Positions 6,935 to 58,639 of a stretch of 64,000 nt of DNA are shown here, in pieces. This DNA comes from an uncultured Methanosarcinales archaeon. Its GTDB lineage: Archaea > Nanobdellota > Nanobdellia > Woesearchaeales > CAXGTL01. The stretch's first letter is position 1, and every line of letters begins with the position of its first letter. The translations under genes and the position numbers were made by a program. The notes under the pieces were generated by a model. It made no database searches and was not told the origin of the DNA. It saw nothing but the letters and a program-made list of their open reading frames with translations. The stretch spans positions 16,749 to 80,748 of the forward strand of contig CAZYAB010000001.1 in the NCBI GenBank assembly GCA_964645705.1. The letters run 5' to 3'.

Positions 6935-6949
6935 GTGGAGGGGAAATAT

Positions 6950-9103: not shown

Positions 9104-9172
9104 AATATTTTTTATTTTTCACTTTTTTATCTTTTTAATTTAAAAAAATGAGATCACCAAAAAACAAAAAAA

Positions 9173-11515: not shown

Positions 11516-11529
11516 TAAGGTGAAAACAA

Positions 11530-12453: not shown

Positions 12454-12671
12454 TCATTGAACCGAAAATATCACAAAAACAACAAAAAATTTAATGACCA
12501 CTATATAATACTAACATTGCGAAAGATTTATATATAATAATAGATTTACACAGTAAAAGTTTACCATAGTATAATAAAAGAGGTTCTAAAAGAGGTTTCA
12601 CAAATTTAATGTTATTAGGGGTGTTTAGATTTAGGTGATAGTGTAGATAGTATCATGTGGAGGGATATAAT

Positions 12672-13778: not shown

Positions 13779-13899
13779 TTTTTTTATTTTTTCATATTAA
13801 TAATACTATTATTATAATATAAGAAAAGAAAAAAAGAGGGAAAAAGAGGAAAAGCAAATCAAAATAAAAAATAAAACAAAATTCAGAGGTTATAAAAAA

Positions 13900-17727: not shown

Positions 17728-18050
17728 TAATGTCATGATCTTATTTTTTTATTATTTTTACGATAAGATTATCCTAACATTTAAAAAATAATGCTCATTA
17801 TTCATGGAAAACATTAAAAAAAGAGGCAAAATGTGACAAAAATGTCGCACGTGTGTCGTATATAGCCAGGGAGTGATTTATTGACCCTTATAGATAGTAA
17901 AATTTATATATCAATTGTGACTCCCAAATGGTTATTAAAAGTAGTCACTCCAAAATAGAAAACTTTAAATATTGGAACAGATTACTTTGATCATATATGG
18001 CTCGTAAGAGAACCTAAAAATCTTAAAACAATGTAGGAGGGATATTAAAA

Positions 18051-19553: not shown

Positions 19554-19661
19554 ACCTTTTTTAATTTAATTTTTTTTCTTTATTTTTTTAACAACAAACA
19601 TAGCAAAAATTAATCAATGAATAAAAAGGGGGATAACAAAAAATAGAAGGTATTGTAAAAA

Positions 19662-24501: not shown

Positions 24502-27500
24502 ATGCAAGAACAATCAAATTCAAATGAAAAGATTCAAACGAATCAAATTAAAACAGAACAGACAAAACAGACAGAACAGGTAATACAGCAAACTAATAAA
24601 GAGATTAATAAAGAAACTGATGAACAAAAAATAGATAAGAAAAGAAAAAAAATAATTGAAACATTGAAGAACTTCTTTACACAAGAAGTAGAAGAGGAAA
24701 AACAGAAAACAGAAGATAAAACAAAAACAAGTAAGAAAATAGAAGAGAATAAAATAATAGGCGAAAAAAAAGAAGAGCAGAAAGAAAAATCAGAAGAACA
24801 AATCGAAATAGATATGCAAAGAAAAAGACAAGAATTTATTAATTTTATTAAAAAAAAACCAATTAATTTGCTTTACATTTTATTCATCTTATTAATACCT
24901 ATAGGTTATCTTATGTATAAATCAGGAACAAGCAGTTTCTTTCTTTTAGACATTTTTATACCATTCCCAATTAATAAATATGGGTTTGTTTCATTTTTTT
25001 TAATACTGCCCATAGTTTCATGCACATTATTATATTATAAAAAACAAGCATATATTGCTCTATTGTATATTATTAATTCAGGTTTTGCAATTAGACTACA
25101 AAATTTACCATTATTAAAAGATATTACAACTGGAAAATATGTGCCTCTTGCCTTAGACCCGCATGTTTTTTTAAGATATGCGAAGTATCTTTTAGAGCAT
25201 GGAAAATTTTATGCCATAGATTCTTTGAGGTATCAACCATTTGGAGCTAATATGGAGGGTTATAATTCAACAACGTTTTTGTCAAGATTTATTGTTTTCT
25301 TGCACAAAATATTTAGAATTTTCAACTCAAATCAAACTATTGAATTTACAGATGTAATCTATCCTCCTGTTTGTTTTGCTATTAGTCTAATATTTTTCTT
25401 TTTAATTGTTAAAAATTTATTTAATAAAAAAATAGCAATCATTTCAACTTTTATCCTATGTGTTGTTCCTACTTATTTATATAGAACAATGGCTGGTTTT
25501 TCAGATAAAGAATCATTAGGTCTTATGTTCATGTTTATTACTTTTTATTTTTTTATTTTGAGTTGGAAATCAGAAAAGATTAGAGAGGTAATTTTATTTG
25601 GGTTAATCTCAGGAATAGCGACAGGTTTAATGGGTTTAACTTGGGGTGGTGTAACTTTTGTTTTATTAATATTTGGAATTTTTACATTTACTGAAATACT
25701 TTTAAAGAAATTCAGAAAAACAGACTATTTTTTCTACATTTCTTGGATTATGCCAATGACTTATATTATGGCTTTCACTACAAACCAATTTGGCGGAATA
25801 ATTCCTTTATTAAAATCATTTACCTCTGGGATAGCTTATCTTGCTTTTTTAGTTGCTACGTTTGATTTTTTATTTTTTAAATTAAAGATTTTTAAGTTTA
25901 GGGACAATCTTAGTAAAAAATTACCATTAGGAATTACTAGTACTCTTCTCTCATTATTTTTTGCTTTTATTGGTATATCAATATTCTTTGGTCCATCTTT
26001 TATTCTTAAAAAGATCTCTAGTGTTTTTTCAGATATGATAAATCCTTTTGGAAAAACAAGATGGGCATTAACAGTGGCAGAATCTCACCAACCTTATTTT
26101 ACTAATTGGATTAGTGATTTTCAATGGTCATTTATTATTTTCTTTTTTATAGGTTCAATAATTTTATTTTATTATGCATTAAGGCCTTTATCCAAGAAAG
26201 AGTCATTTTCAACTAATTTAGGAATTTATTCTGCAATTTTTGCATTATTTTTAATATTTTTTTCAATGAGTAGATACAGCAGAGGTAATGCTGTTTGGAA
26301 TGGAGAGACAATCTTATCAAAAACAATTTATATTGGATCTTTTATTTTTTTCCTTTTGGTAATGTTTTTATCATACTTATATCTATTTTATTTTGATAAA
26401 AATACTTTTAGAAAAATTGAATCAATAGAAAAAAAATATATTTTTATCTTGATTTGGTTTATTATTATGCTTGTTGCAGCAAGAAGTGCTTTAAGATTGA
26501 TTTTAATGCTTGCACCAATAACAAGTATACTTACAAGTTATTTTATTGTTTTTTCAATCAAAAAGACACAGAAATTTAGTTTAGTAATGAAAGATAAAGT
26601 ATATAAATATTCTTTGATAGTTTTGATGGTTTTTATCTTAATCATCGCATTCTGGCCTTTTGCATCATTAGTTAATGCAACTCCTTTAATAAATAAAGTA
26701 CCTTTTATTAATAGAAATGGTTTTATCATTAACTATGCTGCTTTAAGTATGAGCCAAGCAAAATATACTGGACCTAGTTATGATCAACAATGGCAATTAG
26801 CAGGTAAATGGATTCGTGAAAATACTTCAGAAGATGCTGTATTTGGTCATTGGTGGGATTATGGTTATTGGGTTCAAACAGGTGGTGAAAGAGCAACAGT
26901 TGGTGATGGTGGTAATTGGATAGGTTATTGGAATCATTTAATGGGCAGACATGCTTTGATGGGTGAAAATCAAACAGAAGCTTTAGAATTTTTAAATATG
27001 CATAATGTAACTCATTTTCTAATTATTGCAGATGAGATTGGAAAAATAGGTGCTTATTCTTCTATTGGTTCTGATGAGAATTATGATAGATATACTTTTA
27101 TTCCAACATTTTCATTAAACAATCAATTAACAAAAGAAACAAGAGAAGGCATGATCCTTATTTATGAAGGCGTAACCCCTGTTGATGAGGATTTTGAATT
27201 TAATGGTGTTAAATATTATGCAAGACAAGCAGCTGTTAAAGATGTTTATATTCCAATTAAGAAAATAACAATAAATATAGGAGAAAATAAAACAAGACAA
27301 GACATGCAAATCATGCAACCATATACTTTGCTTTTCCAACAAAATCAACAACCACTTGAAGTTCCTCTTAAATGTTTATATTACCAAGATCAATTCATTG
27401 AATTTGATAAACCGGGGTTAAACAATTGTTTTATGGTTATTCCAACCATAAATAATCAAGGCTTTGATCCTAACGGAGCAGGTTTATATCTTGGTAATGA

Positions 27501-27783
27501 TGCTATAAATTCTGTGTGGGTTAATTTATTCTTATTTGAACAAAAAAATACAAATTATAAAACAAACAATTTTAAATTGGCCTTAAGTCAACAACATCCT
27601 ATTTTAGATGATGTAGGTAAACAAATAGGTTTTAACATAAACAACGTTGCTTTATACAATGGAAGATTATTTGGTCCTTTGAAAGTATGGGAAGTTAATT
27701 ATCCTGAGAATTTAACATTGTATCCAGAATATCTTCATAAGAGTTATCAAGAGGCAAATATGAGCCATGTTACTGTGATTTGA
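24502..27783 (+). CDS. aglB: archaeal oligosaccharyltransferase AglB (STT3 family) with ~130-aa K/E/Q-rich N-terminal extension
   Basis: WWDYGYW catalytic-site motif (GHWWDYGYWVQTGGERATVGDGGNW). About 13 TM helices precede a large C-terminal soluble domain. Total length 1093 aa. Confidence 0.85.
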   Translation: MQEQSNSNEKIQTNQIKTEQTKQTEQVIQQTNKEINKETDEQKIDKKRKKIIETLKNFFTQEVEEEKQKTEDKTKTSKKIEENKIIGEKKEEQKEKSEEQIEIDMQRKRQEFINFIKKKPINLLYILFILLIPIGYLMYKSGTSSFFLLDIFIPFPINKYGFVSFFLILPIVSCTLLYYKKQAYIALLYIINSGFAIRLQNLPLLKDITTGKYVPLALDPHVFLRYAKYLLEHGKFYAIDSLRYQPFGANMEGYNSTTFLSRFIVFLHKIFRIFNSNQTIEFTDVIYPPVCFAISLIFFFLIVKNLFNKKIAIISTFILCVVPTYLYRTMAGFSDKESLGLMFMFITFYFFILSWKSEKIREVILFGLISGIATGLMGLTWGGVTFVLLIFGIFTFTEILLKKFRKTDYFFYISWIMPMTYIMAFTTNQFGGIIPLLKSFTSGIAYLAFLVATFDFLFFKLKIFKFRDNLSKKLPLGITSTLLSLFFAFIGISIFFGPSFILKKISSVFSDMINPFGKTRWALTVAESHQPYFTNWISDFQWSFIIFFFIGSIILFYYALRPLSKKESFSTNLGIYSAIFALFLIFFSMSRYSRGNAVWNGETILSKTIYIGSFIFFLLVMFLSYLYLFYFDKNTFRKIESIEKKYIFILIWFIIMLVAARSALRLILMLAPITSILTSYFIVFSIKKTQKFSLVMKDKVYKYSLIVLMVFILIIAFWPFASLVNATPLINKVPFINRNGFIINYAALSMSQAKYTGPSYDQQWQLAGKWIRENTSEDAVFGHWWDYGYWVQTGGERATVGDGGNWIGYWNHLMGRHALMGENQTEALEFLNMHNVTHFLIIADEIGKIGAYSSIGSDENYDRYTFIPTFSLNNQLTKETREGMILIYEGVTPVDEDFEFNGVKYYARQAAVKDVYIPIKKITINIGENKTRQDMQIMQPYTLLFQQNQQPLEVPLKCLYYQDQFIEFDKPGLNNCFMVIPTINNQGFDPNGAGLYLGNDAINSVWVNLFLFEQKNTNYKTNNFKLALSQQHPILDDVGKQIGFNINNVALYNGRLFGPLKVWEVNYPENLTLYPEYLHKSYQEANMSHVTVI

Positions 27784-46251: not shown

Positions 46252-47388
46252 ATGAACAATAATAAAGAAATGAAAAGAAATATACAAAATACAAAAAAAC
46301 CAAGAATCTTGATTATCACACGTTTTTTTCCACAAGATTATAAAGGTGGGGGGGAATATGTTATTTACAATATTTGGAAAAATGCTAGCTTATATTACGA
46401 TGTAAAGCTTGTTTCTGGTTGGGTCAATGATCTTAAATTACTTCCACCAGGAACTCATGCTGTTGACCTAAGATCAAAAAATAGGTTTATTAGGTACTTA
46501 AAACTATATTTTGCAGTAAAGAGATATGCAAATAAGATTAAACCAGACCTAATACACAGCAATGCAATAGAAGTTCCTAAATTAAGATATCCTATGATTG
46601 TTACATCACATCATCTAGGTCATTTGCTAGGTAGATTAAAAGAAAATCCACTCAATCGAATTAGAGCAAAAATACAAAAGATTTTATTAAAAAGAAGATA
46701 TAAACAATTTAAAAAAATACTTGCAGTTAGTAATTCAACAAAAAATGATCTTATAGAGCTTGGTATTAATCCAAAGAAGATAAAAGTAATATACAATGGA
46801 ATTGAAACAAACAAATTCACAACAAAATCAAAAAAAACAAAACAAGAAAAAAACAAGTTTATAATTCTTTATCAATCAAGAATAAGCAAAGAAAAAGGTC
46901 AACATATTGCAATAAAAGCTTTGGCCCACTTACCTAAAGAAATGCTAGATAAAATAAAATTATACTTAGTTGGGTTTATGTCTGATAAAAAATATTTTAA
47001 TTATTTAAAGAATATATCAAAAGGTCTTCCTGTCGAATTTCATATTAATGTTCCAAATAAAGAAGAATATTTTCATAGATGTGATTTATTTGTATTCCCA
47101 ACACTTATGACAGAAGGTTTTGGTTTAGTATCAGCAGAAGCTTTTTGTTGTAATGTACCAGTTATTGCATCAGATTTTCCAGCAATAAGAGAAGTTGTAA
47201 GAGATAATGGAATACTTATTCCGTCGAATAATGCAAAATTATTAGCAGATGCAATAATAAAGCTTTACAAAAATCCAAAATTAAGAAAAAAAATGGGAAT
47301 AAATGGTAGAAAGTTTGTTCTAAATAATTTTACATGGGAAATTGCTTTTAAGAAGTATAAAGAAGTTTATGATTGCATTCTTAAATAA
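46252..47388 (+). CDS. glycosyltransferase family 4
   Basis: EGFGLVSAEAFCCNVPVIASD (E-x7-E GT4 motif). Confidence 0.8.
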   Translation: MNNNKEMKRNIQNTKKPRILIITRFFPQDYKGGGEYVIYNIWKNASLYYDVKLVSGWVNDLKLLPPGTHAVDLRSKNRFIRYLKLYFAVKRYANKIKPDLIHSNAIEVPKLRYPMIVTSHHLGHLLGRLKENPLNRIRAKIQKILLKRRYKQFKKILAVSNSTKNDLIELGINPKKIKVIYNGIETNKFTTKSKKTKQEKNKFIILYQSRISKEKGQHIAIKALAHLPKEMLDKIKLYLVGFMSDKKYFNYLKNISKGLPVEFHINVPNKEEYFHRCDLFVFPTLMTEGFGLVSAEAFCCNVPVIASDFPAIREVVRDNGILIPSNNAKLLADAIIKLYKNPKLRKKMGINGRKFVLNNFTWEIAFKKYKEVYDCILK

Positions 47389-48630: not shown

Positions 48631-49800
48631 TTGTTAATGAATATGAAAAAGCTAAAAATCATTCAAATGACACCATTCTTTTTTCCAGTCCAAGGGGGAA
48701 TGGAGATTCATGTATTTGAAACATCTAAGATGTTGAAAAAATTAGGATATGGTGTAGAAGTATTTTCATCAAATAAATTAAGAAAAGGAAAAATAAAAAA
48801 CAAAACAGATATGTATGATGGAATTCCTGTAAGACGTTTTAATTCATTATTTCATGTAACTAAATTAGCACCAATATGGCCCGGAGTATTGTTCAGAATA
48901 ATGTTTGAGAAATTTGATATCTTGCACATGCATTCATACAGACACCAACATAATCTGTGCGGGCTAATTGCAAAATTAAGAAGAAAAAAAGTAATCCTTA
49001 CACCACATTGGCCAGAATATCCTATGGAATTAAGAAATAAAATTGTGAGGAACATAATACCTCTATTTGATAAAGTGCTTGGCAAACTAATCTTTGCATC
49101 ATGCGACATGATATTTGCAGATACTGGTTCAGAAAAAAAATGGCTAATAAAAAGATTCAATATTAACTCAAATAAAATAAAAGTTATTACACCAGGAATA
49201 TCAAAAACTGAATTTAGAAAAGTAAATTCTGAAAGTTTTAAAAAAAAATATAAAATAGGAAAAAATAAATTAGTGGTATCAGTTGGAAGATTACATAGAA
49301 GCAAAGGGCATGAACAAATAGTAAAAATAGCTAACAAGTTTCCAAACACTAAGTTCGTGTTTGTGGGCAATGACGGCGGTGAAAAAAAGTATTTAGTAAA
49401 ATTAATAAAAAAATTAAATGCAAAAAATGTCATAATAGCAGAAAATGTGCCTGATTCAGAAAGACCAAAAGCATTAAAAGCAGCAGACGTGTTTTGTTCA
49501 GGAACCCAGTATGAGGGTTTTGGTATAATGTTTGCAGAAGCAATGGCACAAGGCACGCCAGTAGTAGCCACTGATGTTGCAGCAGTATCATGGGTAATAA
49601 AAGGCTGCGGTTATACATTTAAGAATCATGATTCAAAAGATTTAGAAAATAAGCTAAGAAATATATTAAACAATCCAAAACTTAAAAAAGAATTAGGAAA
49701 CAATGCTTTAAAAAGAGCAAAACTTTTTACTTTTGACAATATAATAAAAGAATTGAAAAAATCATATAAAGAATTATTGAGGGGCAATAAGCGAGAATGA
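48631..49800 (+). CDS. glycosyltransferase family 4
   Basis: EGFGIMFAEAMAQGTPVVATD (E-x7-E). Confidence 0.8.
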   Translation: MLMNMKKLKIIQMTPFFFPVQGGMEIHVFETSKMLKKLGYGVEVFSSNKLRKGKIKNKTDMYDGIPVRRFNSLFHVTKLAPIWPGVLFRIMFEKFDILHMHSYRHQHNLCGLIAKLRRKKVILTPHWPEYPMELRNKIVRNIIPLFDKVLGKLIFASCDMIFADTGSEKKWLIKRFNINSNKIKVITPGISKTEFRKVNSESFKKKYKIGKNKLVVSVGRLHRSKGHEQIVKIANKFPNTKFVFVGNDGGEKKYLVKLIKKLNAKNVIIAENVPDSERPKALKAADVFCSGTQYEGFGIMFAEAMAQGTPVVATDVAAVSWVIKGCGYTFKNHDSKDLENKLRNILNNPKLKKELGNNALKRAKLFTFDNIIKELKKSYKELLRGNKRE

Positions 49801-50432
49801 AAAAAGGCGTTTATGAAGGAAGAATAAGTGCTGTTGAAGATATGCTTAGAAAAACCAAGCCCGGTTTTGTGCTAGATGTTGGTTGCAGAGCAGGTTTACA
49901 AGATAAATTGTATAAATATATTAAAAAAGTTATAGGATTGGATGTTGATTTAGAAACACTAAAAAAAGCAAAAACCAATTCAACTATTCTTTACAAAGTT
50001 GGTGGCGATGGTTGTAGATTATGTTTTAAAAAAAATAGATTTGATGCAATAATAAACACAGAAGTAATTGAACATGTTCAAGATCCTGTTGCTATGTTAA
50101 AAGAATTTAGTTTTGTTTTGAAAAAGGGTGGTTATCTTATGTTAACAACACCTAATAGGAATAGAATAGCGAATTATATAAGAAAGACAATTGGAAAAGA
50201 ATTTAAATTTCCTTATTATATTCATTCAGGTCCTGGTGGATATCATTTACGAGAATACACAAGGCAAGAATTAACAGATGATTTGAAAAAAGCAGGATTC
50301 AATGTTATAAAATTTTATCCTACTTATTTAGGAATAAGTTTTCATGATAAATTGCCTATAGGCACAAACACATATGCAAAATTGTTTCCTAAGTATCAAG
50401 TTAGTCTAGCTGTATTAGCACAAAAAATATGA
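49797..50432 (+). CDS. class I SAM-dependent methyltransferase
   Basis: VLDVGCRAG (motif I), INTEVIEHVQDP, YLMLTTPN. The start overlaps the upstream GT4 stop (ATGA). Confidence 0.65.
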   Translation: MKKGVYEGRISAVEDMLRKTKPGFVLDVGCRAGLQDKLYKYIKKVIGLDVDLETLKKAKTNSTILYKVGGDGCRLCFKKNRFDAIINTEVIEHVQDPVAMLKEFSFVLKKGGYLMLTTPNRNRIANYIRKTIGKEFKFPYYIHSGPGGYHLREYTRQELTDDLKKAGFNVIKFYPTYLGISFHDKLPIGTNTYAKLFPKYQVSLAVLAQKI

Positions 50433-50447
50433 TTAGGTGAAAAATAT

Positions 50448-51857
50448 ATGACAAAGATACTTTTAATCTATCCAAACATTGTAGAATCCCCTAAAGATAT
50501 ATCATTAGGTTTAGCCACAATATCAGCACTGCTTAAAAAACATAAACATGATGTGCAGCTTCTTGACTCAACGTTCTCGCCAATAACAAAAAATCAAATA
50601 AAACAAAAACTATATTCATTCAGACCAGATTTAGTAGGAATAACAGCTGCAACTAATGATTTTCATTATGCAATACACATTTGTAAACAAATAAAGCACA
50701 TAAATCCTAAAATATCAATCATATGCGGCGGATATCATGCAACTATTGCGCCTGATGATATTATTAAACAGGACTGTTTTGACATGTGTTGTATTGGTGA
50801 AGGTGAATATCCTTTTCTTGAATTAGCTAATAGTATTAGTAGGGGAAAAGTGAATAAAAATATTAAGAATATTTGGTTTAAAGTTGGTAATAGAATAAAA
50901 AAAAATAAACTACGTCCACTAGTAAAAGATCTAGACAAATTACCTTTTCCAGATAGAGTATTATTTGATTTCAGCACATATCTTGATTATAATAAAGGAA
51001 TTGCAACATTTATGGCTTCAAAAGGATGTCCTTTTGCATGTGCACATTGTATTAATAATTTTTTGATTAAAAAGTATAAAGGTTTAGGAAAATATTTAAG
51101 GTTTAGAACAGCTGATTCAATAATTAAAGAGATCAAACAAGTGCTTCAAAAATTTGGTGGAATTATAAAAGAAATAGAATTTTATGATGATACTTTTACT
51201 CTGAATAAACGACTTGTAAAAGAATTTAGTAAAAAATATAAAAATGAAATTGGAATTCCATTTAATATTAATATTAGGGCAGGAAGTGTTACAAAAAAAG
51301 ACCTTATCCATCTAAAGCAAGCTGGTTGTGTTCGCGTTTCTATTGGTTTGGAATCCGGTGACGGATTCATAAGAAATAAAATATTAAAAAGATACCAAAC
51401 AGAAAATCAAATAATAGATACATTTAAATGGGCACGTGAATCCGGATTACAAACATATTCTTTTAATATGGTTGGTATTCCTTATGAAACAAAAGAAACA
51501 ATAAAAAGAACAATAGAGTTGAATAAAAAATGCAAACCCGATTTTGTTGGTGTTTCAATATTCAATGCATATAAAGGAACAGAACTTTATGATTTGTGTG
51601 AAAAGAATGGTTGGTTAATAAAAGACATTGCTGCAAAGTCTTATTTCCAATCAACAAATGTAAAACTGCCAACAGTTTCTATAAAGCAATTAAAAAAAAT
51701 AAGAGATAAATTTGGATTTTTAGTATACAAAGATTCAAGACCACTCAGAGCATATTTAGATTTATTTGACAAAACCTTTATAAAAATACCAGGATATCTG
51801 AAATCAAGATCCTTCATAACAAAATTAGGCATGAAAAAATTATTAAAAAAATTATAA
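50448..51857 (+). CDS. B12-binding domain radical SAM protein (class B radical SAM)
   Basis: N-terminal B12-binding domain (ILLIYPN…VGITAATND…CGGYHAT) and CPFACAHC (CxxxCxxC). Confidence 0.8.
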   Translation: MTKILLIYPNIVESPKDISLGLATISALLKKHKHDVQLLDSTFSPITKNQIKQKLYSFRPDLVGITAATNDFHYAIHICKQIKHINPKISIICGGYHATIAPDDIIKQDCFDMCCIGEGEYPFLELANSISRGKVNKNIKNIWFKVGNRIKKNKLRPLVKDLDKLPFPDRVLFDFSTYLDYNKGIATFMASKGCPFACAHCINNFLIKKYKGLGKYLRFRTADSIIKEIKQVLQKFGGIIKEIEFYDDTFTLNKRLVKEFSKKYKNEIGIPFNINIRAGSVTKKDLIHLKQAGCVRVSIGLESGDGFIRNKILKRYQTENQIIDTFKWARESGLQTYSFNMVGIPYETKETIKRTIELNKKCKPDFVGVSIFNAYKGTELYDLCEKNGWLIKDIAAKSYFQSTNVKLPTVSIKQLKKIRDKFGFLVYKDSRPLRAYLDLFDKTFIKIPGYLKSRSFITKLGMKKLLKKL

Positions 51858-51858
51858 G

Positions 51859-54252
51859 GTGGTAAAAATTCAAGAAAATAATGGAAATATCCAAGAAGAT
51901 AAAAATATAGATACTCAAAAGGAACCAGGTGAGTCTATTGATAAATCTAAAGAATTTGAAAATAAAGTAAAAAAAGAAGAAATAGAACAAAAAATTGAAA
52001 CAACAGACTCAAAACAAAAAAAACTAAAATTTAATTTAAATTCATTTAAAAGAGTAACTATAGCTTGGTTTAAAAATCCTTGGAATTTAGCTTTTTTATT
52101 TTTGCTTATTGTTGTGTTTTTTATTTATTGGAATAATTTATTTGTTGATAGTATTTGGTTAGATGAAACTGCTTATGATTGGGATGCTCAGTTGCTTAAA
52201 CATGATTTATCACATTTTTCAAATATAAAAAATTGGGGCTCTATATTCCCAGTTACTGTTATTTCATTCTTTAATATTTTTACAACAAGCTTTAATGCAG
52301 GAAGGTTAATGGCTTTATTTTTTGGTCTTTTAGGCATAGTATTTACATATTTTGTTGGAAAAGAGATAAAAAATGAATTTGTTGGTTTATCTGCAGCATT
52401 TTTATTAGGGATACATCATTGGTATCGGTTTTTATCAATGAAAGCTTTATTAGATGTCCCATTAGCAACCATGACTATTATTTCTGCCTTTTTTTTAATT
52501 AAATGTTTTAATGATTTTAATTTTAAATGGTTAATCTTATTATTAATTTCAGCAACATTAGCAACTCTTACAAAGTTATCAGGATTTATTATTTGGTTAA
52601 TGATTTTTATTTGTTTAGTGGTATTTTTAATAGTACATAAACTCTCATTAATAAAAAAATATTCAAAAACTAAATATTTGGTTCCTGGTTTAATATTATT
52701 AATCATTTTGACATTTTTAATAATAAAAAGCCCTATAGGGGAATTTGTAATCTTTTCATTTTTAACAAGAGTAACTTTTCAATATGTTATTGCGACATAT
52801 AAAACAATGGGCGGTTTTTTAAGTGGGATTATTGTTTTATTAATGATTATTGGTTCTTTACTAACTTTTTTTTATAATAAGATAGAATATTATGTTTTAT
52901 TTATTATGAGTCATTTATATTTATTTTTATCAGCAATTTCAGGACAAAGTTTGGGTGTTCCTGAATTGAGATATTTGCTCCCTGTTTTGCCTTTCTTTTA
53001 TATTCTTTCAGTTGTATCTCTGGAAGAAATAAAACATTTTATTTTAATTTTTTTTAAAGATAGAAAAATGATAAAAATTTCATTAGTTGTGTTACAAATA
53101 ATAATTTTACTTTTTGTTGCAAACACATATTACAAGACTGGTAGTATGATTCTAGACCAAAAGAATGTTGCATATTCTGGTTATGTTGAAGCTATGGATT
53201 GGGTCAATGAAAATATACCTCCCGGTAATAATAATATCACTGGTTATCATGCTAAGGATTATTCATATGATCCAGATAATTATGTGGATGATCTTTATAT
53301 TAAGAATTATTTTTCATGCTGTAGTTATAATGTTGGTTTAAATAATGATGATATAAGAAGAGTAACAAGTTTTAATAAATTTAAAACAATAGACAATTTT
53401 ACAGACCATATATCTTCTAATAATTTTTCTGTAGTATTTCTTAATCCAGATATGTGGGAACCTGGTCAACCAAAATGGGTTAATATGGGTACATGGCCTT
53501 TTTTGATATTGTTTGACCCAAACACACAGCAAGCAATACAACAAATAGATTATAAACAATTTCCTCAATATAAAGCAATCATTGATTTAGGATTTGAAGA
53601 AGTAAGAGTAATAAAGAGAAAAGCACTTCTTCCTGTTATAGACATAACAAATAATAATTTCCTTGGTCAACAATATATGGATGATGTTCCTGTTAATATC
53701 CTTTTTAAGATGGAAATAGAAAAACAAGAACAAGGTAAAAACATGAAAGAAGAATTAAAAGATGAAATAAAAGAAGAAAATAAAGTAACCAATAAATTAT
53801 CTATAATTGAAACGAACTTAGGAAATATAACAATTGAACTAGCACAAGATAAAGCACCAATAACAACAAAGAATTTTATAAATTTAATAGAAAAAGATTT
53901 TTACAATAATTTAACATTTCATAGAGTTATCAAAGATTTTATGATACAAGGTGGCGATCCTAATGGCGACGGAACTGGTGGTCCTGGTTATACAATAGAA
54001 GATGAATTTCATCCAGATCTTAAGCATGATAAAGGCGTTATATCAATGGCAAATTCAGGGCCAAATACTGGTGGAAGTCAATTTTTTATCACTGTTGTTG
54101 AAACACCTTGGTTAGATAATAAGCACAGTGTATTTGGGAAAGTTGTTGAAGGAATTGGTGTTGTAGAGAATATATCAAAAATTGAAACTGGTGCAAATGA
54201 TAAACCTATTGAAGATGTTGTAATTAAATCAATAAAAATATTAGATAAGTAA
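51859..54252 (+). CDS. fusion protein: GT-C (PMT/ArnT-like) polytopic membrane glycosyltransferase + C-terminal cyclophilin-type peptidyl-prolyl isomerase
   Basis: N-terminal ~550 aa with more than 10 TM helices and SIWLDETAYDWD (first-loop DE motif). C-terminal ~165 aa: FHRVIKDFMIQGGDP…GGPGYTIEDEF…ISMANSGPNTGGSQFFIT…HSVFGKV is a cyclophilin signature. Confidence 0.75.
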   Translation: MVKIQENNGNIQEDKNIDTQKEPGESIDKSKEFENKVKKEEIEQKIETTDSKQKKLKFNLNSFKRVTIAWFKNPWNLAFLFLLIVVFFIYWNNLFVDSIWLDETAYDWDAQLLKHDLSHFSNIKNWGSIFPVTVISFFNIFTTSFNAGRLMALFFGLLGIVFTYFVGKEIKNEFVGLSAAFLLGIHHWYRFLSMKALLDVPLATMTIISAFFLIKCFNDFNFKWLILLLISATLATLTKLSGFIIWLMIFICLVVFLIVHKLSLIKKYSKTKYLVPGLILLIILTFLIIKSPIGEFVIFSFLTRVTFQYVIATYKTMGGFLSGIIVLLMIIGSLLTFFYNKIEYYVLFIMSHLYLFLSAISGQSLGVPELRYLLPVLPFFYILSVVSLEEIKHFILIFFKDRKMIKISLVVLQIIILLFVANTYYKTGSMILDQKNVAYSGYVEAMDWVNENIPPGNNNITGYHAKDYSYDPDNYVDDLYIKNYFSCCSYNVGLNNDDIRRVTSFNKFKTIDNFTDHISSNNFSVVFLNPDMWEPGQPKWVNMGTWPFLILFDPNTQQAIQQIDYKQFPQYKAIIDLGFEEVRVIKRKALLPVIDITNNNFLGQQYMDDVPVNILFKMEIEKQEQGKNMKEELKDEIKEENKVTNKLSIIETNLGNITIELAQDKAPITTKNFINLIEKDFYNNLTFHRVIKDFMIQGGDPNGDGTGGPGYTIEDEFHPDLKHDKGVISMANSGPNTGGSQFFITVVETPWLDNKHSVFGKVVEGIGVVENISKIETGANDKPIEDVVIKSIKILDK

Positions 54253-54264
54253 TTATTAGGTAGA

Positions 54265-55170
54265 ATGGATATGAAAAATAAAATATCAATTTTAATAGCA
54301 GCATACAGAGAACCTAAAACAATTGGAAAAGCTATAGAATCATTTCTTTCTCAGTTAACTAATTTAAAATGGGAAATGTTATTGATTGCGCCTGATAAAG
54401 AAACATTGGAAGTGATGAAATCGTATTCGAAAAAAGACAGGAACATAAAAGTATTCAAAGACCCAAGAAAAGGAAAACCTGTTGCTCTTAATATTCTTTT
54501 TAAAAAAGCAAAAGGGGATATTTTTATTTTAAGTGATGGTGACGTTTATGTTAGTAAAAATGCCATATTTGAATTATTAAAAAAATTAGAAAATCCTAAA
54601 ATAGGGGCAGTCACAGGAAGACCTGTTTCTATTTCACAAAAAAACAAGATGCTTGGTTATTGGTCACATCTTTTGACAGATGTTGGCGCACATAAAACTA
54701 GATTAATAAGAACAAAGCAAGGCAAGTTCATACTTGTATCTGGTTATTTATTTGCAATGCGAAAACTATTCACAAAAATCCCCGAAGATGCACTTAGTGA
54801 TGATGCTGTTATGGCTCATATGGTGTGGCAGAGAGGATACAAAATCGACTATGCACCAAAAGCAAAGGTTTTTGTCAAATATCCAACAACATTTGATGAT
54901 TGGATATTACAAAAAAGGAGATCAACTGGTGGTTACGTACAAATAGAACACTATTTTAAGGATCCTCCAAGAATGAGAACATTTTTCAGGGAATTATTAT
55001 ATGGTAGCATGTGGGTTTGGTTTTATCCAAATAGTATAAGAGAAATATGGTATACATTGATGTTGTTTCCTGCAAAACTTTATCTCTGGTATAAGATCAA
55101 AAAAGAGGTAAAAAAAGATCAAACAAAGACATTGTTAGAAATCTGGAAACCTATTGAGAGCACTAAGTAA
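54265..55170 (+). CDS. glycosyltransferase family 2
   Basis: ISILIAAYREPKTI…LIAPDKE…LSDGDVYV. A QKRRSTGG region sits where QxxRW is expected. Confidence 0.7.
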   Translation: MDMKNKISILIAAYREPKTIGKAIESFLSQLTNLKWEMLLIAPDKETLEVMKSYSKKDRNIKVFKDPRKGKPVALNILFKKAKGDIFILSDGDVYVSKNAIFELLKKLENPKIGAVTGRPVSISQKNKMLGYWSHLLTDVGAHKTRLIRTKQGKFILVSGYLFAMRKLFTKIPEDALSDDAVMAHMVWQRGYKIDYAPKAKVFVKYPTTFDDWILQKRRSTGGYVQIEHYFKDPPRMRTFFRELLYGSMWVWFYPNSIREIWYTLMLFPAKLYLWYKIKKEVKKDQTKTLLEIWKPIESTK

Positions 55171-56814: not shown

Positions 56815-57771
56815 ATGGCTAAAAATAGAGTTAAGGAAAAACAAAATAAAAGTGAGAAAAAAAAGAATAAAAGTAGATCATTTATAGTAAAGTTTATTAT
56901 AACAATTCTTATCTTCACATTTATCTTTATGAAGATAGATTTTCACAAAATTTTAAGTATTATAAAAAATATAAATTTGTTTATTTTATTTCTCTCTGCG
57001 CCATTTTTATTTCTTTTTTATGGAATTAAAACCACAAAATGGAATTTATTACTTAGAGCATTAGATGAGAAAACAGATTTTATTAAAAATTATGTAATTA
57101 TAATAATTTCAACTTTTTATTGTTTAGTAACTCCTGGTAAAGCTGGTGAATTAACAAGAGCTTTGTACTTGAAAGCAGATAAAGCAAAGATTGTTTCAAC
57201 TGTTATTTGGGATAAAATAATTGATGTATTTGTATTAATTGTACTATCAGATATATTGGTTTTTACACTTTTTAGAAATATAATCTTACAATTCTTAATG
57301 CTTATAATTTCTTTTGGATTTATTGTATTTGTTTTTATACTGTTTAATGAAAAAATAACACATTTTGTATTAAAATTAATAAAAATAAAAGAGGATACAA
57401 TATCTAATTATATCATTAATTTGAACAAAATTAAAAAAAATAAGAAAATTGTTATTAAGAATACAATTTATACTTTTCTCTTCTACACTGTTGGGTTTAT
57501 TATCACCTATTTTGTGTTAATTTCATTGCAAAAAAACGCAAGTTATATTTTCTCTTTAAGTTATCCATTATTTGCACTCTTAGGGAACATTCCTATAACT
57601 TTGTCAGGGTTAGGAACAAGGGAATATGTAAACATGGTTTGTTTTGAAACATTGGGATCTAGTCCAGATTTAGGTTTCACAGTTTCATTTGTCTTTTTTA
57701 TAATATCTGTATTAATTCCAGGAATTTTGGGAGGGATTTTAAGTCTTAAGGCTAAAATAAGAATAAAATAA
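56815..57771 (+). CDS. polytopic membrane protein, UPF0104/LPG-synthase-TM-like (putative flippase partner of GT2)
   Basis: About 8 TM helices, a K-rich N-terminus, and a GKAGELTRAL loop. Immediately upstream of a DPM-like GT2. Confidence 0.4.
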   Translation: MAKNRVKEKQNKSEKKKNKSRSFIVKFIITILIFTFIFMKIDFHKILSIIKNINLFILFLSAPFLFLFYGIKTTKWNLLLRALDEKTDFIKNYVIIIISTFYCLVTPGKAGELTRALYLKADKAKIVSTVIWDKIIDVFVLIVLSDILVFTLFRNIILQFLMLIISFGFIVFVFILFNEKITHFVLKLIKIKEDTISNYIINLNKIKKNKKIVIKNTIYTFLFYTVGFIITYFVLISLQKNASYIFSLSYPLFALLGNIPITLSGLGTREYVNMVCFETLGSSPDLGFTVSFVFFIISVLIPGILGGILSLKAKIRIK

Positions 57772-57778
57772 AAATAAA

Positions 57779-58639
57779 ATGAATAAAGTATCAGTATTAA
57801 TACCAGCATATAATGAAGAAAAATCAATAGTAGATACTATTAAAAGGATAAAAAAAGTATTTCTTGAAATTAAAGAAAGTTATGAAATCATTGTAATAAA
57901 TGATGGAAGCAAAGACAATACTAATTATTTATTGAGTAAGATTAAAGGAATCAAAGTAATAAATAATCCTTATAATTTAGGATATGGAGCTTCATTAAAA
58001 AGAGGTTTAATTGAATCAAATGGGGAATTTATATTAATTACTGATGCAGATGGGACTTATCCTATAGATGATATACCAAGATTATTGAAACACATAAATA
58101 ATTATGATATGGTTATTGGTGCAAGAATAGGGAAAAATACATATATTCCTTTATTAAGAAGACCTGCGAAGAAAATATTAGGTATTTTTGCAAACCTTTT
58201 GACTAAGAGAAAAATTTATGATTTAAATTCAGGGTTAAGAGTCTTTAGAAAAGATATGGCGATGAAATTCTATAGACTATATCCTTCTGGGTTTTCTTTT
58301 ACAACAACAATTACTTTAGCAGCATTAACTAATGATTATACTGTTAAGCATATTTCCATTAATTATTTTAAAAGAAAAGGTAAATCAACTATTCACCCTA
58401 TAAAGGATTTTATTGGATTCAATGCATTAATACTCAGGATTGTTTTATATTTTAAACCACTTAAATTTTTTTTAACACCAGGGATAATCTTAATCTTATC
58501 TGGTTTTATTTTCGGTTTGTATCAGATTATGTCAACTGGGATGGGTTTAGGTCAACTTCCAATAATATTAATTTTAGGAGGAATTCAAATTTGTTTTATT
58601 GGTTTATTAGCTGAAGTTATTATACATAAGGATAAATAA
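57779..58639 (+). CDS. dolichyl-phosphate sugar synthase-like GT2 with C-terminal TM helices
   Basis: VSVLIPAYNEEKSI, VINDGSKDNT, ITDADGTY, plus two C-terminal TM helices. Confidence 0.75.
   Translation: MNKVSVLIPAYNEEKSIVDTIKRIKKVFLEIKESYEIIVINDGSKDNTNYLLSKIKGIKVINNPYNLGYGASLKRGLIESNGEFILITDADGTYPIDDIPRLLKHINNYDMVIGARIGKNTYIPLLRRPAKKILGIFANLLTKRKIYDLNSGLRVFRKDMAMKFYRLYPSGFSFTTTITLAALTNDYTVKHISINYFKRKGKSTIHPIKDFIGFNALILRIVLYFKPLKFFLTPGIILILSGFIFGLYQIMSTGMGLGQLPIILILGGIQICFIGLLAEVIIHKDK

What the first reader, a model, noticed from the sequence alone, without database searches (positions are those of the whole stretch)
51859..54252. Unusual fusion of a GT-C (PMT/ArnT-like) membrane glycosyltransferase to a cyclophilin peptidyl-prolyl isomerase
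One 797-aa ORF has more than 10 TM helices with a first-loop WLDETAY (DE) motif, then a C-terminal cyclophilin domain with the diagnostic FHRVIKDFMIQGGD…SMANSGPNTGGSQFFIT signature. A transferase physically coupled to a prolyl isomerase suggests glycosylation coupled to folding or proline isomerisation of the acceptor. The Pro-rich segments of the neighbouring surface proteins are candidate acceptors. I am not aware of this architecture being described.
Basis: seen in the sequence. Interest (0 to 1): 0.68.

Follow-up and report, generated by a model that had tools for sequence, protein, structure and literature searches.

The report
Membrane glycosyltransferase fused to external cyclophilin
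An uncultured, probably archaeal microbe encodes a membrane sugar-transferring enzyme permanently tethered to a protein-folding enzyme (a cyclophilin) on the outside of the cell; this rare but conserved combination hints that the enzyme works on freshly exported proteins.

Summary

It is not an assembly artefact. Two other contigs carry the identical ORF. Two other organisms (L001, L003) carry the same architecture at 55-63% (GT-C) and 73-78% (CyP) identity, in the same operon.

The fusion is very rare. I found three organisms among about 15 billion proteins. About ten closer relatives of roughly 500 aa lack the CyP.

The predicted topology is N-in, C-out, which puts the CyP outside the membrane.

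The gene lies in a ~60-kb glycosylation island holding AglB, a Dol-P-hexose-synthase-like GT2 and a flippase-like protein.

Best reading: a lipid-phosphate-sugar-dependent external glycosyltransferase acting on exported proteins, with the CyP as a flexibly tethered proline-directed capture/foldase module. Coupling, donor and acceptor are inferred, not shown. The "Pro-rich neighbouring acceptors" idea is unsupported.

All three linkers also contain a conserved internal ATG with a Shine-Dalgarno-like motif.

Verdict: a new variant of a known kind, of moderate interest.

The parts
51859..54252 (+). Whole fusion gene (797 aa plus stop), GTG start one base after the stop of the upstream B12-radical SAM gene
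51859..52077 (+). N-terminal K/E-rich low-complexity tail (aa 1-73), predicted cytoplasmic. It is present only in the CyP-bearing subclade (window, L001, L003, P0003)
52078..53157 (+). GT-C membrane core, 11 predicted TM helices (aa 74-433); AF2 pLDDT about 87-98
52156..52176 (+). First external loop motif W100-L-D-E-T-A-Y106, with invariant W100, D102 and E103 (the GT-C 'DE' catalytic motif)
52927..52929 (+). Codon Leu357 (TTA). In scaffold L004 from another sample it reads TAA (T52928A), a nonsense variant or sequencing error inside TM9
53158..53712 (+). Family-specific soluble C-domain (aa 434-618), predicted external. It is shared with the CyP-less relatives and has a conserved CC-x-Y-N and DDIRRV motif and a conserved sequon N459-I-T. 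It is poorly modelled (pLDDT 30-64)
53713..53802 (+). Charged low-complexity linker (aa 619-648). It is 25-30% identical between the fusions, with lengths of 30, 51 and 64 aa
53733..53745 (+). Shine-Dalgarno-like AGGT (53733-53736) followed by an in-frame ATG (codon 629, 53743-53745), 16 codons before the CyP core. The same arrangement occurs in L001 and L003
53803..54249 (+). Cyclophilin-type PPIase domain (aa 649-797) with all CypA catalytic residues; AF2 pLDDT about 83-97
50448..51857 (+). B12-binding radical SAM enzyme. It is 80% identical in L001 and L003, and 53-54% identical near the CyP-less relatives
49797..50432 (+). SAM-dependent methyltransferase of the conserved operon (79% identical in L003)
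48631..49800 (+). GT4 glycosyltransferase (Agl16-like) of the conserved operon (66% identical in L003)
46252..47388 (+). Second GT4 glycosyltransferase of the conserved operon (74% identical in L003)
54265..55170 (+). GT2 (PgaC/HpnI/GT21-like, 301 aa). It is the conserved neighbour of this GT-C family: 84% identical in L003, and 48-51% identical and adjacent in the CyP-less loci L006, L007 and L009
56815..57771 (+). MprF-type 'flippase-like domain' membrane protein (PF03706; TIGR00374 94 bits against a 43 cut-off); candidate lipid-linked sugar flippase
57779..58639 (+). AglJ / dolichyl-phosphate-hexose-transferase / ArnC-like GT2 with two C-terminal TM helices; candidate synthase of the lipid-phosphate-sugar donor
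24502..27783 (+). AglB/STT3 oligosaccharyltransferase (archaeo_STT3-like) in the same glycosylation island; marks the organism as archaeal

Best explanation
The gene encodes one polypeptide with five parts. They are a cytoplasmic charged tail, an 11-TM GT-C glycosyltransferase core of the PMT/ArnT/STT3 structural class, a family-specific external soluble domain, a flexible charged tether, and a catalytically competent cyclophilin on the outer face of the membrane.

The gene sits in a conserved operon: GT4, GT4, methyltransferase, B12-radical SAM, fusion, GT2. That operon lies inside a ~60-kb archaeal protein-glycosylation island with AglB.

Most likely mechanism. A neighbouring GT2 loads a sugar onto dolichyl/polyprenyl phosphate on the cytoplasmic face. 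The sugar may be modified by the radical SAM enzyme and the methyltransferase. The MprF-type flippase-like protein moves it outward. The GT-C, using the D102-E103 loop, transfers it to a protein-borne acceptor, either Ser/Thr or an already attached N-glycan as AglS does, on newly exported and still unfolded surface proteins. The tethered cyclophilin acts in cis as a proline-directed capture and foldase module. It binds or isomerises X-Pro segments and so holds clients near the active site, or completes their folding afterwards. This would parallel the MIR domain of PMTs, the TPR domain of TMTCs and the thioredoxin-like subunit of OST.

Shown: ORF continuity, domain identities, folds, catalytic residues, conservation in three organisms, monophyly of the fused CyPs, and synteny. 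Inferred: topology (strong inference), the lipid-phosphate donor (moderate), and the protein acceptor and functional coupling (weak to moderate).
For: ORF and domains.

CyP integrity: PDB best hits are CYP71/PPIL1-type at E 5e-48. All 12 CypA binding and catalytic residues are retained in all three fusions. The CyP is the best-conserved module, at 73-78% identity.

Genuine and conserved fusion: the identical ORF is on two further contigs. The same architecture occurs in L001 (Logan) and L003 (GTDB MAG). The fused CyPs form a clade, with bootstrap 143/200. The operon is conserved at 66-84% identity.

Topology: K+R makes up 8/25 residues in loops assigned inside, plus a K/R-rich N-tail, against 6/95 in loops assigned outside, and this holds across nine family members. 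All six N-x-S/T sequons are in the predicted external part, and one is conserved in all three fusions. Many of the nearest free CyPs carry lipoprotein signal peptides or signal anchors followed by low-complexity tethers.

Donor logic: an AglJ/Dol-P-hexose-transferase/ArnC-like GT2 with two C-terminal TM helices and a flippase-like protein lie 2.6-4.4 kb downstream. The same trio (arCOG00899, a PMT/STT3-like GT-C and an AglD-like GT2) is a known conserved archaeal neighbourhood (PMC5898192). The AglD/AglR/AglS precedent is in PMC5744192.

Accessory protein-binding modules on related GT-Cs: PMT_2+TPR fusions appear among distant relatives, and TMTC/PMT are covered in PMC7801869.
Against: The linker is unconserved and varies in length. 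AF2 gives no confident placement of the CyP relative to the GT-C. There is therefore no evidence for a defined interface.

About ten family members lack the CyP and have no CyP gene nearby.

The fused CyP active site is indistinguishable from free CyPs. The only clade-specific changes (I657, A662) do not coincide with any of the CypA active-site positions checked.

The best NCBIfam similarities of the operon partners are to HpnJ, HpnI and HpnL, which are lipid head-group enzymes. These are far below the cut-offs, but they would fit a glycolipid pathway.

Topology is predicted, not measured.

The conserved internal ATG with an SD-like motif raises the possibility that part of the CyP is made as a separate cytoplasmic protein.
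Confidence: 0.5

Rival explanations
1. Anchoring only. The cyclophilin is a general extracytoplasmic foldase, like the lipoprotein- or TM-anchored cyclophilins of related organisms. In one lineage its membrane anchor was replaced by fusion to an abundant membrane enzyme. The GT-C may act on a glycolipid, polysaccharide or lipid-linked glycan, and the two activities share location but not substrates.
For: Many of the closest free CyPs are membrane-tethered through a lipobox or signal anchor plus a low-complexity spacer, which is the same design as the fusion's linker. The linker is unconserved and variable. The CyP active site is generic. Most family members need no CyP. The operon partners have their best, though weak, similarity to HpnI/HpnJ/HpnL-type lipid head-group enzymes.
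Against: The fusion has been kept in three lineages that have diverged to about 55% identity, with the CyP as the most conserved module and in a conserved operon. The gene lies in an island dominated by protein-glycosylation genes, including AglB. Related GT-Cs repeatedly carry protein-binding accessory domains such as TPR.
Confidence: 0.3
2. Two products from one gene. The fusion arose by loss of the stop codon between a GT-C gene and a downstream cyclophilin gene. The old ribosome-binding site and ATG are still used, so cells make a free CyP of about 169 aa without a signal peptide (cytoplasmic) in addition to, or mainly instead of, the full-length protein.
For: An in-frame ATG lies 12-16 codons before the CyP core in all three otherwise unconserved linkers. 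Each is preceded at -7 to -12 by AGGT, GGTGA or GAGGA. Such motifs precede only 6.5% of internal ATGs but 28% of annotated starts in this window. In the window gene this ATG is the only one of 17 internal ATGs that has the motif. Many of the nearest free CyPs are cytoplasmic-type proteins of about 154 aa.
Against: The motif set was chosen after seeing the data. No relative with a separate CyP gene downstream of the GT-C was found. The reading frame through the linker has stayed open in three lineages despite length changes, which implies selection on the full-length product. An internal start does not exclude a functional fusion.
Confidence: 0.13
3. Inverted topology. The C-terminal domain and the cyclophilin are cytoplasmic, so the CyP is a cytoplasmic chaperone fused to a membrane enzyme.
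For: Free cytoplasmic-type CyPs are as similar (about 70%) as secreted ones. The linker-to-CyP segment has no hydrophobic stretch. Topology was not measured.
Against: There are eleven TM helices with an N-in orientation. The K/R-rich loops at 260-273 and 398-401 are inside, and the last TM helix (402-433) runs from inside to outside. In the GT-C enzymes that match best (ArnT, PglB/AglB/STT3, PMT) the C-terminal part is periplasmic or luminal (established knowledge). Sequons occur only in the C-terminal part.
Confidence: 0.05
4. Artefact. An assembly chimera or a sequencing error removed a stop codon or frameshift between two separate genes.
For: The data are metagenome-assembled. One scaffold (L004) does show the gene broken into two called ORFs.
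Against: The break in L004 is a single-base nonsense change inside the GT-C membrane domain (codon 357), and the domain junction is identical. The same uninterrupted ORF is on two other contigs. Two other organisms from unrelated datasets have the same continuous architecture.
Confidence: 0.02

Closest known systems
Protein O-mannosyltransferases of the GT-C/PMT clan (PMT1-7/POMT, TMTC1-4, TMEM260; bacterial Pmt)
   Different: The accessory module here is an enzyme (cyclophilin) on a flexible C-terminal tether, not MIR or TPR. No MIR domain was detected. Sequence similarity to PMTs is marginal (PDB profile E 0.06). The organism is archaeal. The sugar, donor and acceptor are unknown.
Haloferax volcanii AglD / AglR / AglS (Dol-P-mannose synthase, flippase, GT-C that adds the last sugar to the protein-bound N-glycan)
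   Same: Both are archaeal and share the three-component logic: a GT2 loads Dol-P, a flippase moves it, and a PMT-like GT-C acts outside on a glycoprotein (PMC5744192). The window has an AglJ/AglD-like GT2, a flippase-like protein and AglB near the fusion. The arCOG00899 + PMT/STT3-like + AglD-like neighbourhood is described in PMC5898192.
   Different: AglS has no cyclophilin. The candidate flippase here is MprF-type rather than AglR/Wzx-type.
ArnT / ArnC / ArnD / ArnEF (lipid A aminoarabinose system)
   Different: ArnT modifies a lipid, not a protein, and has no foldase domain. No NCBIfam ArnT match was found.
Folding catalysts associated non-covalently with protein-modifying enzymes: Ost3/Ost6 (thioredoxin-like) in OST, FKBP11 at the OST-A translocon, cyclophilin B in the P3H1/CRTAP/PPIB collagen-processing complex
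   Same: The concept is shared: a folding catalyst or PPIase held next to an enzyme that must act on unfolded, newly translocated chains. FKBP11 binds beside STT3A (PDB 9n9j; PMC12804085). PPIB is part of a prolyl-hydroxylase complex (PDB 8k0f, listed).
   Different: Those are separate subunits, whereas here there is a covalent fusion. In the FKBP11 case the authors argue against a prolyl-isomerase role because the catalytic site is buried (PMC12804085). That is a caution for the present case.
Membrane-tethered extracytoplasmic PPIases (lipoprotein or signal-anchored cyclophilins; by analogy PrsA and PpiD parvulins)
   Same: Several near free relatives of the CyP domain (P0026, P0022, P0038, P0043, P0024; 60-70% identical) have a lipobox signal peptide or an N-terminal anchor followed by a low-complexity spacer and then the CyP. 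That is the same 'anchor, tether, CyP' design.
   Different: The anchor here is an 11-TM enzyme plus a ~185-aa domain, and the CyP is C-terminal to it. PrsA and PpiD are parvulins, not cyclophilins (own knowledge).

Membership tests
GT-C fold glycosyltransferases, PMT/ArnT-like (Pfam PMT_2 PF13231 / PMT PF02366) | Sequence match to the family model above the curated threshold | tested here: met
   PMT_2 scores 32.1 bits against a 26.1 cut-off, and PMT 27.1 against 22.7. The margins are modest.
GT-C fold glycosyltransferases, PMT/ArnT-like (Pfam PMT_2 PF13231 / PMT PF02366) | Multi-span membrane module with the GT-C fold | tested here: met
GT-C fold glycosyltransferases, PMT/ArnT-like (Pfam PMT_2 PF13231 / PMT PF02366) | Conserved acidic (Asp-Glu) motif in the first extracytoplasmic loop | tested here: met
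   W100-x-D102-E103 is invariant in alignments of 5-9 family members.
GT-C fold glycosyltransferases, PMT/ArnT-like (Pfam PMT_2 PF13231 / PMT PF02366) | Uses a polyprenyl/dolichyl-phosphate-linked sugar donor on the extracytoplasmic face | not testable with these tools
   Context only: an AglJ/Dol-P-hexose-transferase-like GT2 with two C-terminal TM helices and a flippase-like protein lie nearby.
Bona fide GT39 protein O-mannosyltransferase (PMT/POMT) | MIR domains in the large luminal loop between TM7 and TM8 | tested here: not met
   There is no MIR hit in Pfam at E <= 0.01. The corresponding loop (aa 291-322) is only about 32 residues.
Bona fide GT39 protein O-mannosyltransferase (PMT/POMT) | Transfers mannose from Dol-P-Man to Ser/Thr of proteins | not testable with these tools
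   No biochemical data exist, and no acceptor could be identified.
ArnT (GT83) lipid A aminoarabinose transferase | Match to curated ArnT models, and an Arn operon context (ArnA/B/D) | tested here: not met
   There is no NCBIfam GT-C or ArnT hit for the protein. No ArnA/B/D-like genes are in the operon. The host is an archaeon with AglB.
Cyclophilin-type peptidyl-prolyl isomerase (PF00160) | Sequence match to the family model | tested here: met
   Pro_isomerase E 3.4e-54, 183.8 bits against a 21.7 cut-off. The best PDB hits are CYP71/PPIL1 at E about 5e-48.
Cyclophilin-type peptidyl-prolyl isomerase (PF00160) | Catalytic and substrate-binding residues (CypA H54, R55, F60, M61, Q63, A101, N102, Q111, F113, W121, L122, H126) | tested here: met
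   All are identical in the window, L001 and L003. A103 is Ser in two of them. The CypA reference sequence was supplied from memory.
Cyclophilin-type peptidyl-prolyl isomerase (PF00160) | Cyclophilin beta-barrel fold | tested here: met
Cyclophilin-type peptidyl-prolyl isomerase (PF00160) | Measured PPIase activity and cyclosporin sensitivity | not testable with these tools
   This needs the recombinant domain.
Three-component extracytoplasmic glycosylation module (polyprenyl-P GT2 synthase + flippase + GT-C; Gtr/Arn/AglD-R-S type) | All three gene types co-located | tested here: met
   The GT-C is at 51859-54252. The flippase-like protein is at 56815-57771 (TIGR00374, 94 bits against a 43 cut-off). 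The AglJ/DPH-transferase-like GT2 is at 57779-58639 (E 9e-34, below the equivalog cut-off). The neighbourhood type is described in PMC5898192.
Three-component extracytoplasmic glycosylation module (polyprenyl-P GT2 synthase + flippase + GT-C; Gtr/Arn/AglD-R-S type) | The three genes are conserved together with this particular GT-C family | tested here: inconclusive
   L003 lacks the flippase-like and AglJ-like genes within 8 kb. In L002, L008 and L010 an AglJ-like GT2 is adjacent to the CyP-less GT-C. The consistently conserved neighbour is the other GT2 (54265-type). The window's AglJ-like GT2 could equally serve the paralogous GT-C at 61823-63541.

The most novel reading that the evidence does not exclude
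This clade is an archaeal protein O-glycosyltransferase, or a protein-directed glycan-finishing transferase, with built-in substrate selection. The tethered cyclophilin recognises X-Pro segments of unfolded, newly exported surface proteins and delivers them to the GT-C active site. Prolyl isomerisation and glycosylation would then be kinetically coupled in one polypeptide. That would give the first molecular handle on archaeal O-glycosylation, whose enzymes were still unknown in the 2014 review I read (PMC4245038). It would also be the first covalent glycosyltransferase-PPIase machine. A further twist that the data do not exclude is that the same gene also yields a free cytoplasmic cyclophilin from the conserved internal start.
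Probability: 0.22. Interest if true: 0.8.

Novelty: new variant of a known kind. Interest (0 to 1): 0.55.

Why it matters
GT-C enzymes that act on proteins must catch their substrates before they fold. Known solutions are accessory domains or subunits: MIR, TPR, the thioredoxin-like Ost3/6, and translocon docking. A covalently tethered, catalytically intact cyclophilin would be a new solution.

It also gives a rare sequence-level clue that an otherwise anonymous archaeal PMT-like family works on proteins. This matters because the enzymes of archaeal O-glycosylation were still unidentified in the 2014 review I read (PMC4245038).

The protein is compact and modular, so it can be tested by heterologous expression: topology, PPIase activity, and CyP-dependent glycosylation.

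If instead the CyP is only anchored there, the case still shows how genome-reduced archaea place a foldase on the cell surface. The conserved internal start would be an example of one gene serving two compartments.

Tried and rejected
1. Assembly or frameshift artefact: rejected. Identical ORFs are on two further contigs, and the same architecture occurs in two other organisms. The only broken copy (L004) has a nonsense SNP at codon 357 inside the GT-C, not at the junction.

2. Search for other GT-C-CyP fusions. The full-length phmmer against 1.84 billion representatives found only CyP-only or GT-C-only relatives. Long C-terminal-CyP hits proved to be tandem cyclophilins or LVIVD/Ig fusions. 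The profile search of the GT-C part and the CyP-only search found no further fusion. The metagenome scan gave six more family loci: four whose GT-C gene is complete at its 3' end lack a CyP, and the other two (L009, L011) are cut off by a contig end inside the gene.

3. Pro-rich neighbouring acceptors: the surface-protein genes are more than 34 kb away and only weakly Pro-enriched. Not supported.

4. The first AF2 run with a 6-sequence MSA modelled the CyP and C-domain poorly. A composite 40-sequence MSA rescued the CyP but not the C-domain or any inter-domain geometry, so no docking inference was possible.

5. The afdb50 fold library was unavailable.

6. A 9-sequence alignment was too divergent for the locus scan and was replaced by a 5-sequence one.

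The GTDB relative is labelled 'Methanosarcinales archaeon'. That label sits oddly with 27-30% GC, with Woesearchaeota- and Aenigmatarchaeota-like nearest CyPs, and with a Tara 0.1-0.22 um relative. Lineage is unresolved (DPANN-like is my guess).

8. CyP specialisation: only two clade-specific substitutions were found, and neither is at an active-site position checked.

9. The sequence profile against PDB for the GT-C part gave only a marginal Pmt2 hit (E 0.06). Fold comparison was needed.
Full report
OBSERVATION. Window 51859-54252 (+) is a single open reading frame of 797 codons with a GTG start and no stop or frameshift. The start lies one base after the stop of the upstream gene. Pfam places PMT_2 (aa 137-288, 32.1 bits, cut-off 26.1) and PMT (27.1, cut-off 22.7) in the N-terminal half. 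It places a full-length cyclophilin domain (aa 650-793, E 3.4e-54) at the C-terminus. The motif WLDETAY is at aa 100-106.

ANATOMY. Hydropathy, the AF2 helices and family alignments divide the protein into five parts.
- aa 1-73: a K/E-rich low-complexity tail.
- aa 74-433: eleven transmembrane helices. The first external loop carries the invariant W100-x-D102-E103. Further invariant residues include R149, K195, D199, K239 and R371.
- aa 434-618: a soluble domain, conserved at 59-63% among the fusions and also present in relatives without a cyclophilin. It has a conserved CC-x-Y-N...DDIRRV stretch.
- aa 619-648: a charged low-complexity linker.
- aa 649-797: the cyclophilin.

The second AF2 model used a composite 40-sequence MSA. 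It is confident for the membrane core (pLDDT 87-98) and the cyclophilin (83-97). It is poor for the soluble domain (30-64) and the linker. No inter-domain geometry can therefore be claimed.

IS THE FUSION REAL? Yes. The identical 797-aa protein is encoded on two other contigs. One is a 75-kb ENA scaffold that matches the window 100% over 8.4 kb. The other is a 275-kb contig. A 2.7-kb scaffold from a different sample (L004) matches the window over 2,673 bp with one mismatch. That mismatch is T52928A, which converts Leu357 (TTA) to TAA inside the ninth TM helix. This is why a gene caller split that copy into a 356-aa and a 433-aa product. The C-domain-linker-CyP junction is identical there. The stated refutation condition, a stop between the two domains, is therefore not met.

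More importantly, two other organisms carry the same architecture. L001 is a Logan contig with 39% GC, encoding an 838-aa protein. L003 is a 183-kb contig of a GTDB species-representative MAG with 30% GC. The three proteins are about equidistant. Identities are 55-56% in the membrane core, 59-63% in the soluble domain and 73-78% in the cyclophilin. The linker is only 25-30% identical, with lengths of 30, 51 and 64 residues. In a neighbour-joining tree with 126 free cyclophilins the three fused domains form a clade, with bootstrap 143/200. This gives moderate support for a single ancestral fusion that has since been maintained by selection.

HOW COMMON IS IT? Very rare. A full-length phmmer search of 1.84 billion cluster representatives found relatives of the GT-C part only in P0003 (an N-terminal Tara fragment) and in P0009 and P0017 (about 517 aa, no CyP). 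All other hits matched through the cyclophilin alone. Long proteins with a C-terminal CyP turned out to be tandem cyclophilins or LVIVD/Ig fusions. Word-indexed searches of 5.8 billion clusters, using the GT-C part, a family profile and the CyP alone, added only CyP-less relatives (P0004-6, P0156) and single-domain cyclophilins. A scan of JGI metagenomes gave six more family loci. Four have a GT-C gene that is complete at its 3' end and lacks a CyP; L009 and L011 are cut off by a contig end inside the gene. No locus has a CyP gene in the sequence held. The CyP is thus a late accessory in one subclade. That same subclade also acquired the N-terminal charged tail. Three literature searches found no description of a GT-C-cyclophilin fusion.

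TOPOLOGY (inferred). With the AF2 helices as TM segments, loops assigned to the cytoplasm hold 8 K+R in 25 residues, in addition to a tail with 16 K+R. Loops assigned to the outside hold 6 in 95. The pattern holds across nine family members. This N-in, 11-TM, C-out arrangement puts the D102-E103 loop, the soluble domain and the cyclophilin on the outer face. The C-terminal domains of ArnT, PglB/AglB/STT3 and PMTs lie on that side too (established knowledge). All six N-x-S/T sequons of the protein lie in the predicted external part. None lies among the 20 Asn of the tail and membrane core. N459-I-T is conserved in all three fusions. Many of the nearest free cyclophilins carry lipoprotein signal peptides (..AGC..SGC) or a signal anchor, followed by a low-complexity spacer. 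Externally tethered cyclophilins are therefore common in this sequence neighbourhood. Cytoplasmic-type forms of about 154 aa are equally similar.

GENOMIC CONTEXT. The window is essentially a ~60-kb glycosylation and envelope island. It holds the following.
- An archaeal AglB/STT3 (24502-27783).
- At least two further PMT_2-type GT-Cs (32453-34237 and 61823-63541).
- A Wzx-like flippase.
- Many GT2 and GT4 enzymes, sugar-nucleotide enzymes, methyltransferases and radical SAM enzymes.

The immediate operon is GT4, (epimerase on the other strand), GT4, methyltransferase, B12-radical SAM, fusion, GT2. L003 conserves it gene by gene at 66-84% identity, and the fusion gene is its fastest-evolving member. 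L001 keeps the B12-radical SAM gene at 80% identity. In the CyP-less relatives L006, L007 and L009, the homologue of the 54265-type GT2 (48-51%) is adjacent to the GT-C. The B12-radical SAM gene (53-54%) is close by in L006 and L009. B12-rSAM + GT2 + GT-C is therefore the family's core module.

Downstream of the fusion, 2.6-4.4 kb away, lie two further genes. One is an MprF-type 'flippase-like domain' protein (TIGR00374 above cut-off). The other is a GT2 that matches AglJ, dolichyl-phosphate hexose transferase, PpgS and ArnC models, and it has the two C-terminal TM helices typical of polyprenyl-phosphate glycosyltransferases. Exactly this neighbourhood has been described as conserved in archaea and implicated in glycosylation: arCOG00899, a PMT/STT3-like GT-C and an AglD-like GT2 (PMC5898192). 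Haloferax AglD/AglR/AglS is the experimental precedent for such a trio acting on a glycoprotein outside the membrane (PMC5744192). All NCBIfam matches of the partners are far below equivalog cut-offs, so only family-level functions can be inferred. The best similarities of the B12-rSAM (HpnJ), the 54265 GT2 (HpnI, weak) and the flippase-like protein (HpnL, weak) leave a glycolipid head-group pathway open.

MECHANISM. My best-supported reading is a lipid-phosphate-sugar-dependent GT-C that works on the outer face of the membrane on protein-borne acceptors. Those acceptors would be Ser/Thr or an attached N-glycan of newly exported surface proteins. The cyclophilin would be a flexibly tethered, proline-directed capture and foldase module acting on the same clients. 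This is functionally analogous to the MIR domains of PMTs and the TPR domains of TMTCs (PMC7801869; PMT_2+TPR relatives). It is also analogous to the thioredoxin-like OST subunits, and conceptually to PPIases that sit beside modifying enzymes. Examples are FKBP11 at the OST-A translocon (PDB 9n9j; PMC12804085) and cyclophilin B in the P3H1/CRTAP complex (PDB 8k0f).

What is shown: one polypeptide, two intact catalytic modules, long-term conservation, and operon context. What is inferred: topology (strongly), donor (moderately), and protein acceptor and coupling (weakly). The variable linker and the generic CyP active site argue for proximity rather than a rigid bifunctional active centre. Only I657 and A662 are clade-specific. 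The FKBP11 paper is a reminder that a PPIase fold at a glycosylation site need not act as an isomerase. I give this reading a confidence of 0.5.

RIVALS.
- Anchoring only (0.3). A general external foldase swapped its lipid or TM anchor for a membrane enzyme, and the GT-C may act on non-protein acceptors.
- Two products from one gene (0.13). See the next section.
- Inverted topology (0.05).
- Artefact (0.02).

AN UNEXPECTED DETAIL. In all three otherwise unconserved linkers there is an in-frame ATG 12-16 codons before the CyP core. It is preceded at -7 to -12 by a Shine-Dalgarno-like motif. The window has AAGGTAAAAAC|ATG (ATG at 53743), L001 has AAGGTGATGAAAAC|ATG, and L003 has AGAGGATGATACT|ATG. 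In this window such motifs precede 28% of annotated starts but only 6.5% of internal in-frame ATGs. Within the window's fusion gene this is the only one of 17 internal ATGs that has the motif. This looks like the preserved start of a once-separate cyclophilin gene. It may still function as an internal start, giving a free, signal-less and therefore cytoplasmic CyP of about 169 aa. I chose the motif set after seeing the data, so this is a lead and not a result.

The secreted or surface proteins in the window (6935-22613) lie more than 34 kb upstream. Their most Pro-rich 40-residue windows hold 6-7 Pro. Nothing links them specifically to this gene.

ORGANISM AND HABITAT. The window has no rRNA or tRNA. 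AglB and Agl-like genes indicate an archaeon. GC is 27%. Related sequences come from a Tara mesopelagic 0.1-0.22 um fraction (P0003), Rifle groundwater (L002) and a MAG labelled Methanosarcinales (L003). The nearest free CyPs include Woesearchaeota and Aenigmatarchaeota. A neighbouring BioSample number from the same dataset is described as a marine water-column sample (PMC12220078). I suspect a DPANN-like lineage, but this is unresolved.

VERDICT. It is a new variant of a known kind, namely a PMT/ArnT-like GT-C with an accessory protein-handling module that in this case is an enzyme. Interest is moderate (0.55). The case is rare, conserved and testable, and it is potentially a handle on archaeal protein O-glycosylation. 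The function is inferred, and the organisms are uncultured.

Noticed in passing
window 52927-52929 (position 52928); L004 position 1308: A 2.7-kb scaffold from a second sample of the same project is identical to the window except for T->A at 52928. The change turns Leu357 (TTA) into a stop inside the GT-C membrane domain. It could be a null allele segregating in the population or a low-coverage error. It explains why the database holds a '433-aa cyclophilin protein' (P0002) that begins in the middle of the GT-C.
   Followed up: yes
window 53733-53745; L001 2549-2565; L003 9869-9884: A conserved in-frame ATG with a Shine-Dalgarno-like motif lies in the otherwise unconserved linker of all three fusions, 12-16 codons before the cyclophilin core. 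It is either a relic of a separate CyP gene or a live internal start giving a free cytoplasmic CyP.
   Followed up: partly
L003 7606-8139: In the GTDB MAG the fusion ORF is open from 7737, and its N-terminus aligns with the window protein. It has no ATG, GTG or TTG in frame until codon 135, after the catalytic loop. The start is probably a non-canonical ATT at 7743, or there is an assembly error. A 130-bp GC-richer spacer, absent from the window, separates it from the radical SAM gene.
   Followed up: partly
window 13900-17727 and 18051-19553 (also the GC profile of 8000-20000): Two secreted, very acidic surface proteins have no N-x-S/T sequon at all. One is 1275 aa with PKD domains; the other is 500 aa with a C-terminal anchor. 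About 8 sequons would be expected in the larger one, and an AglB gene lies 5-7 kb downstream. The block at 8-20 kb is GC-richer (0.31-0.33) than the rest of the window (about 0.25). This may reflect sequon avoidance or foreign origin.
   Followed up: no
window 11530-12453 and 12657-13778: Two adjacent proteins of unknown family both end in acidic, P/Q/E-rich tails that terminate in '...GF' (DYSNFGF and LEEEIGF). This may be a shared C-terminal sorting or processing signal.
   Followed up: no
window 51859-52077; L001 541-760; L003 7737-8000; P0003 aa 1-90: The CyP-bearing subclade also has a 65-95-aa K/E-rich cytoplasmic N-terminal tail that the CyP-less relatives lack. The two extensions were gained together or in the same lineage. 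The function of the tail is unknown.
   Followed up: partly
window aa ~545-600 of the fusion (about 53490-53660); alignment A1 columns 630-700: The soluble C-domain of the fused proteins has three short insertions of about 11, 11 and 12-14 aa (e.g. NMGTWPFLILF, AIQQIDYKQFP, ALLPVIDITNNNF). These are absent from the CyP-less relatives P0004 and P0005. They could form a docking surface for the CyP or for clients.
   Followed up: no
L006 946-7518; L009 3260-6700; L007 225-2776; window 50448-55170: The 54265-type GT2 (PgaC/HpnI/GT21-like) and the B12-radical SAM enzyme travel with this GT-C family even in the CyP-less members, but in a different gene order (GT2 upstream of the GT-C). They define a conserved three-gene module of unknown product.
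   Followed up: partly
window 1-64000; L002: The whole window is a glycosylation and envelope island: AglB, at least three PMT_2-type GT-Cs, a Wzx-like flippase, more than 10 GT2/GT4 enzymes and several radical SAM enzymes. The Rifle groundwater contig L002 shares its logic, with AglB next to an FAD oxidoreductase-like gene and GT-C genes each followed by an AglJ-like GT2.
   Followed up: partly
window aa 657 and 662 of the fusion (53827-53829, 53842-53844): Only two residues distinguish the fused cyclophilins from about 126 free ones. Both are Phe -> smaller residues (I657, A662) in the first beta-strands, and neither coincides with an active-site position checked. They might form a pocket on the back face.
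   Followed up: no
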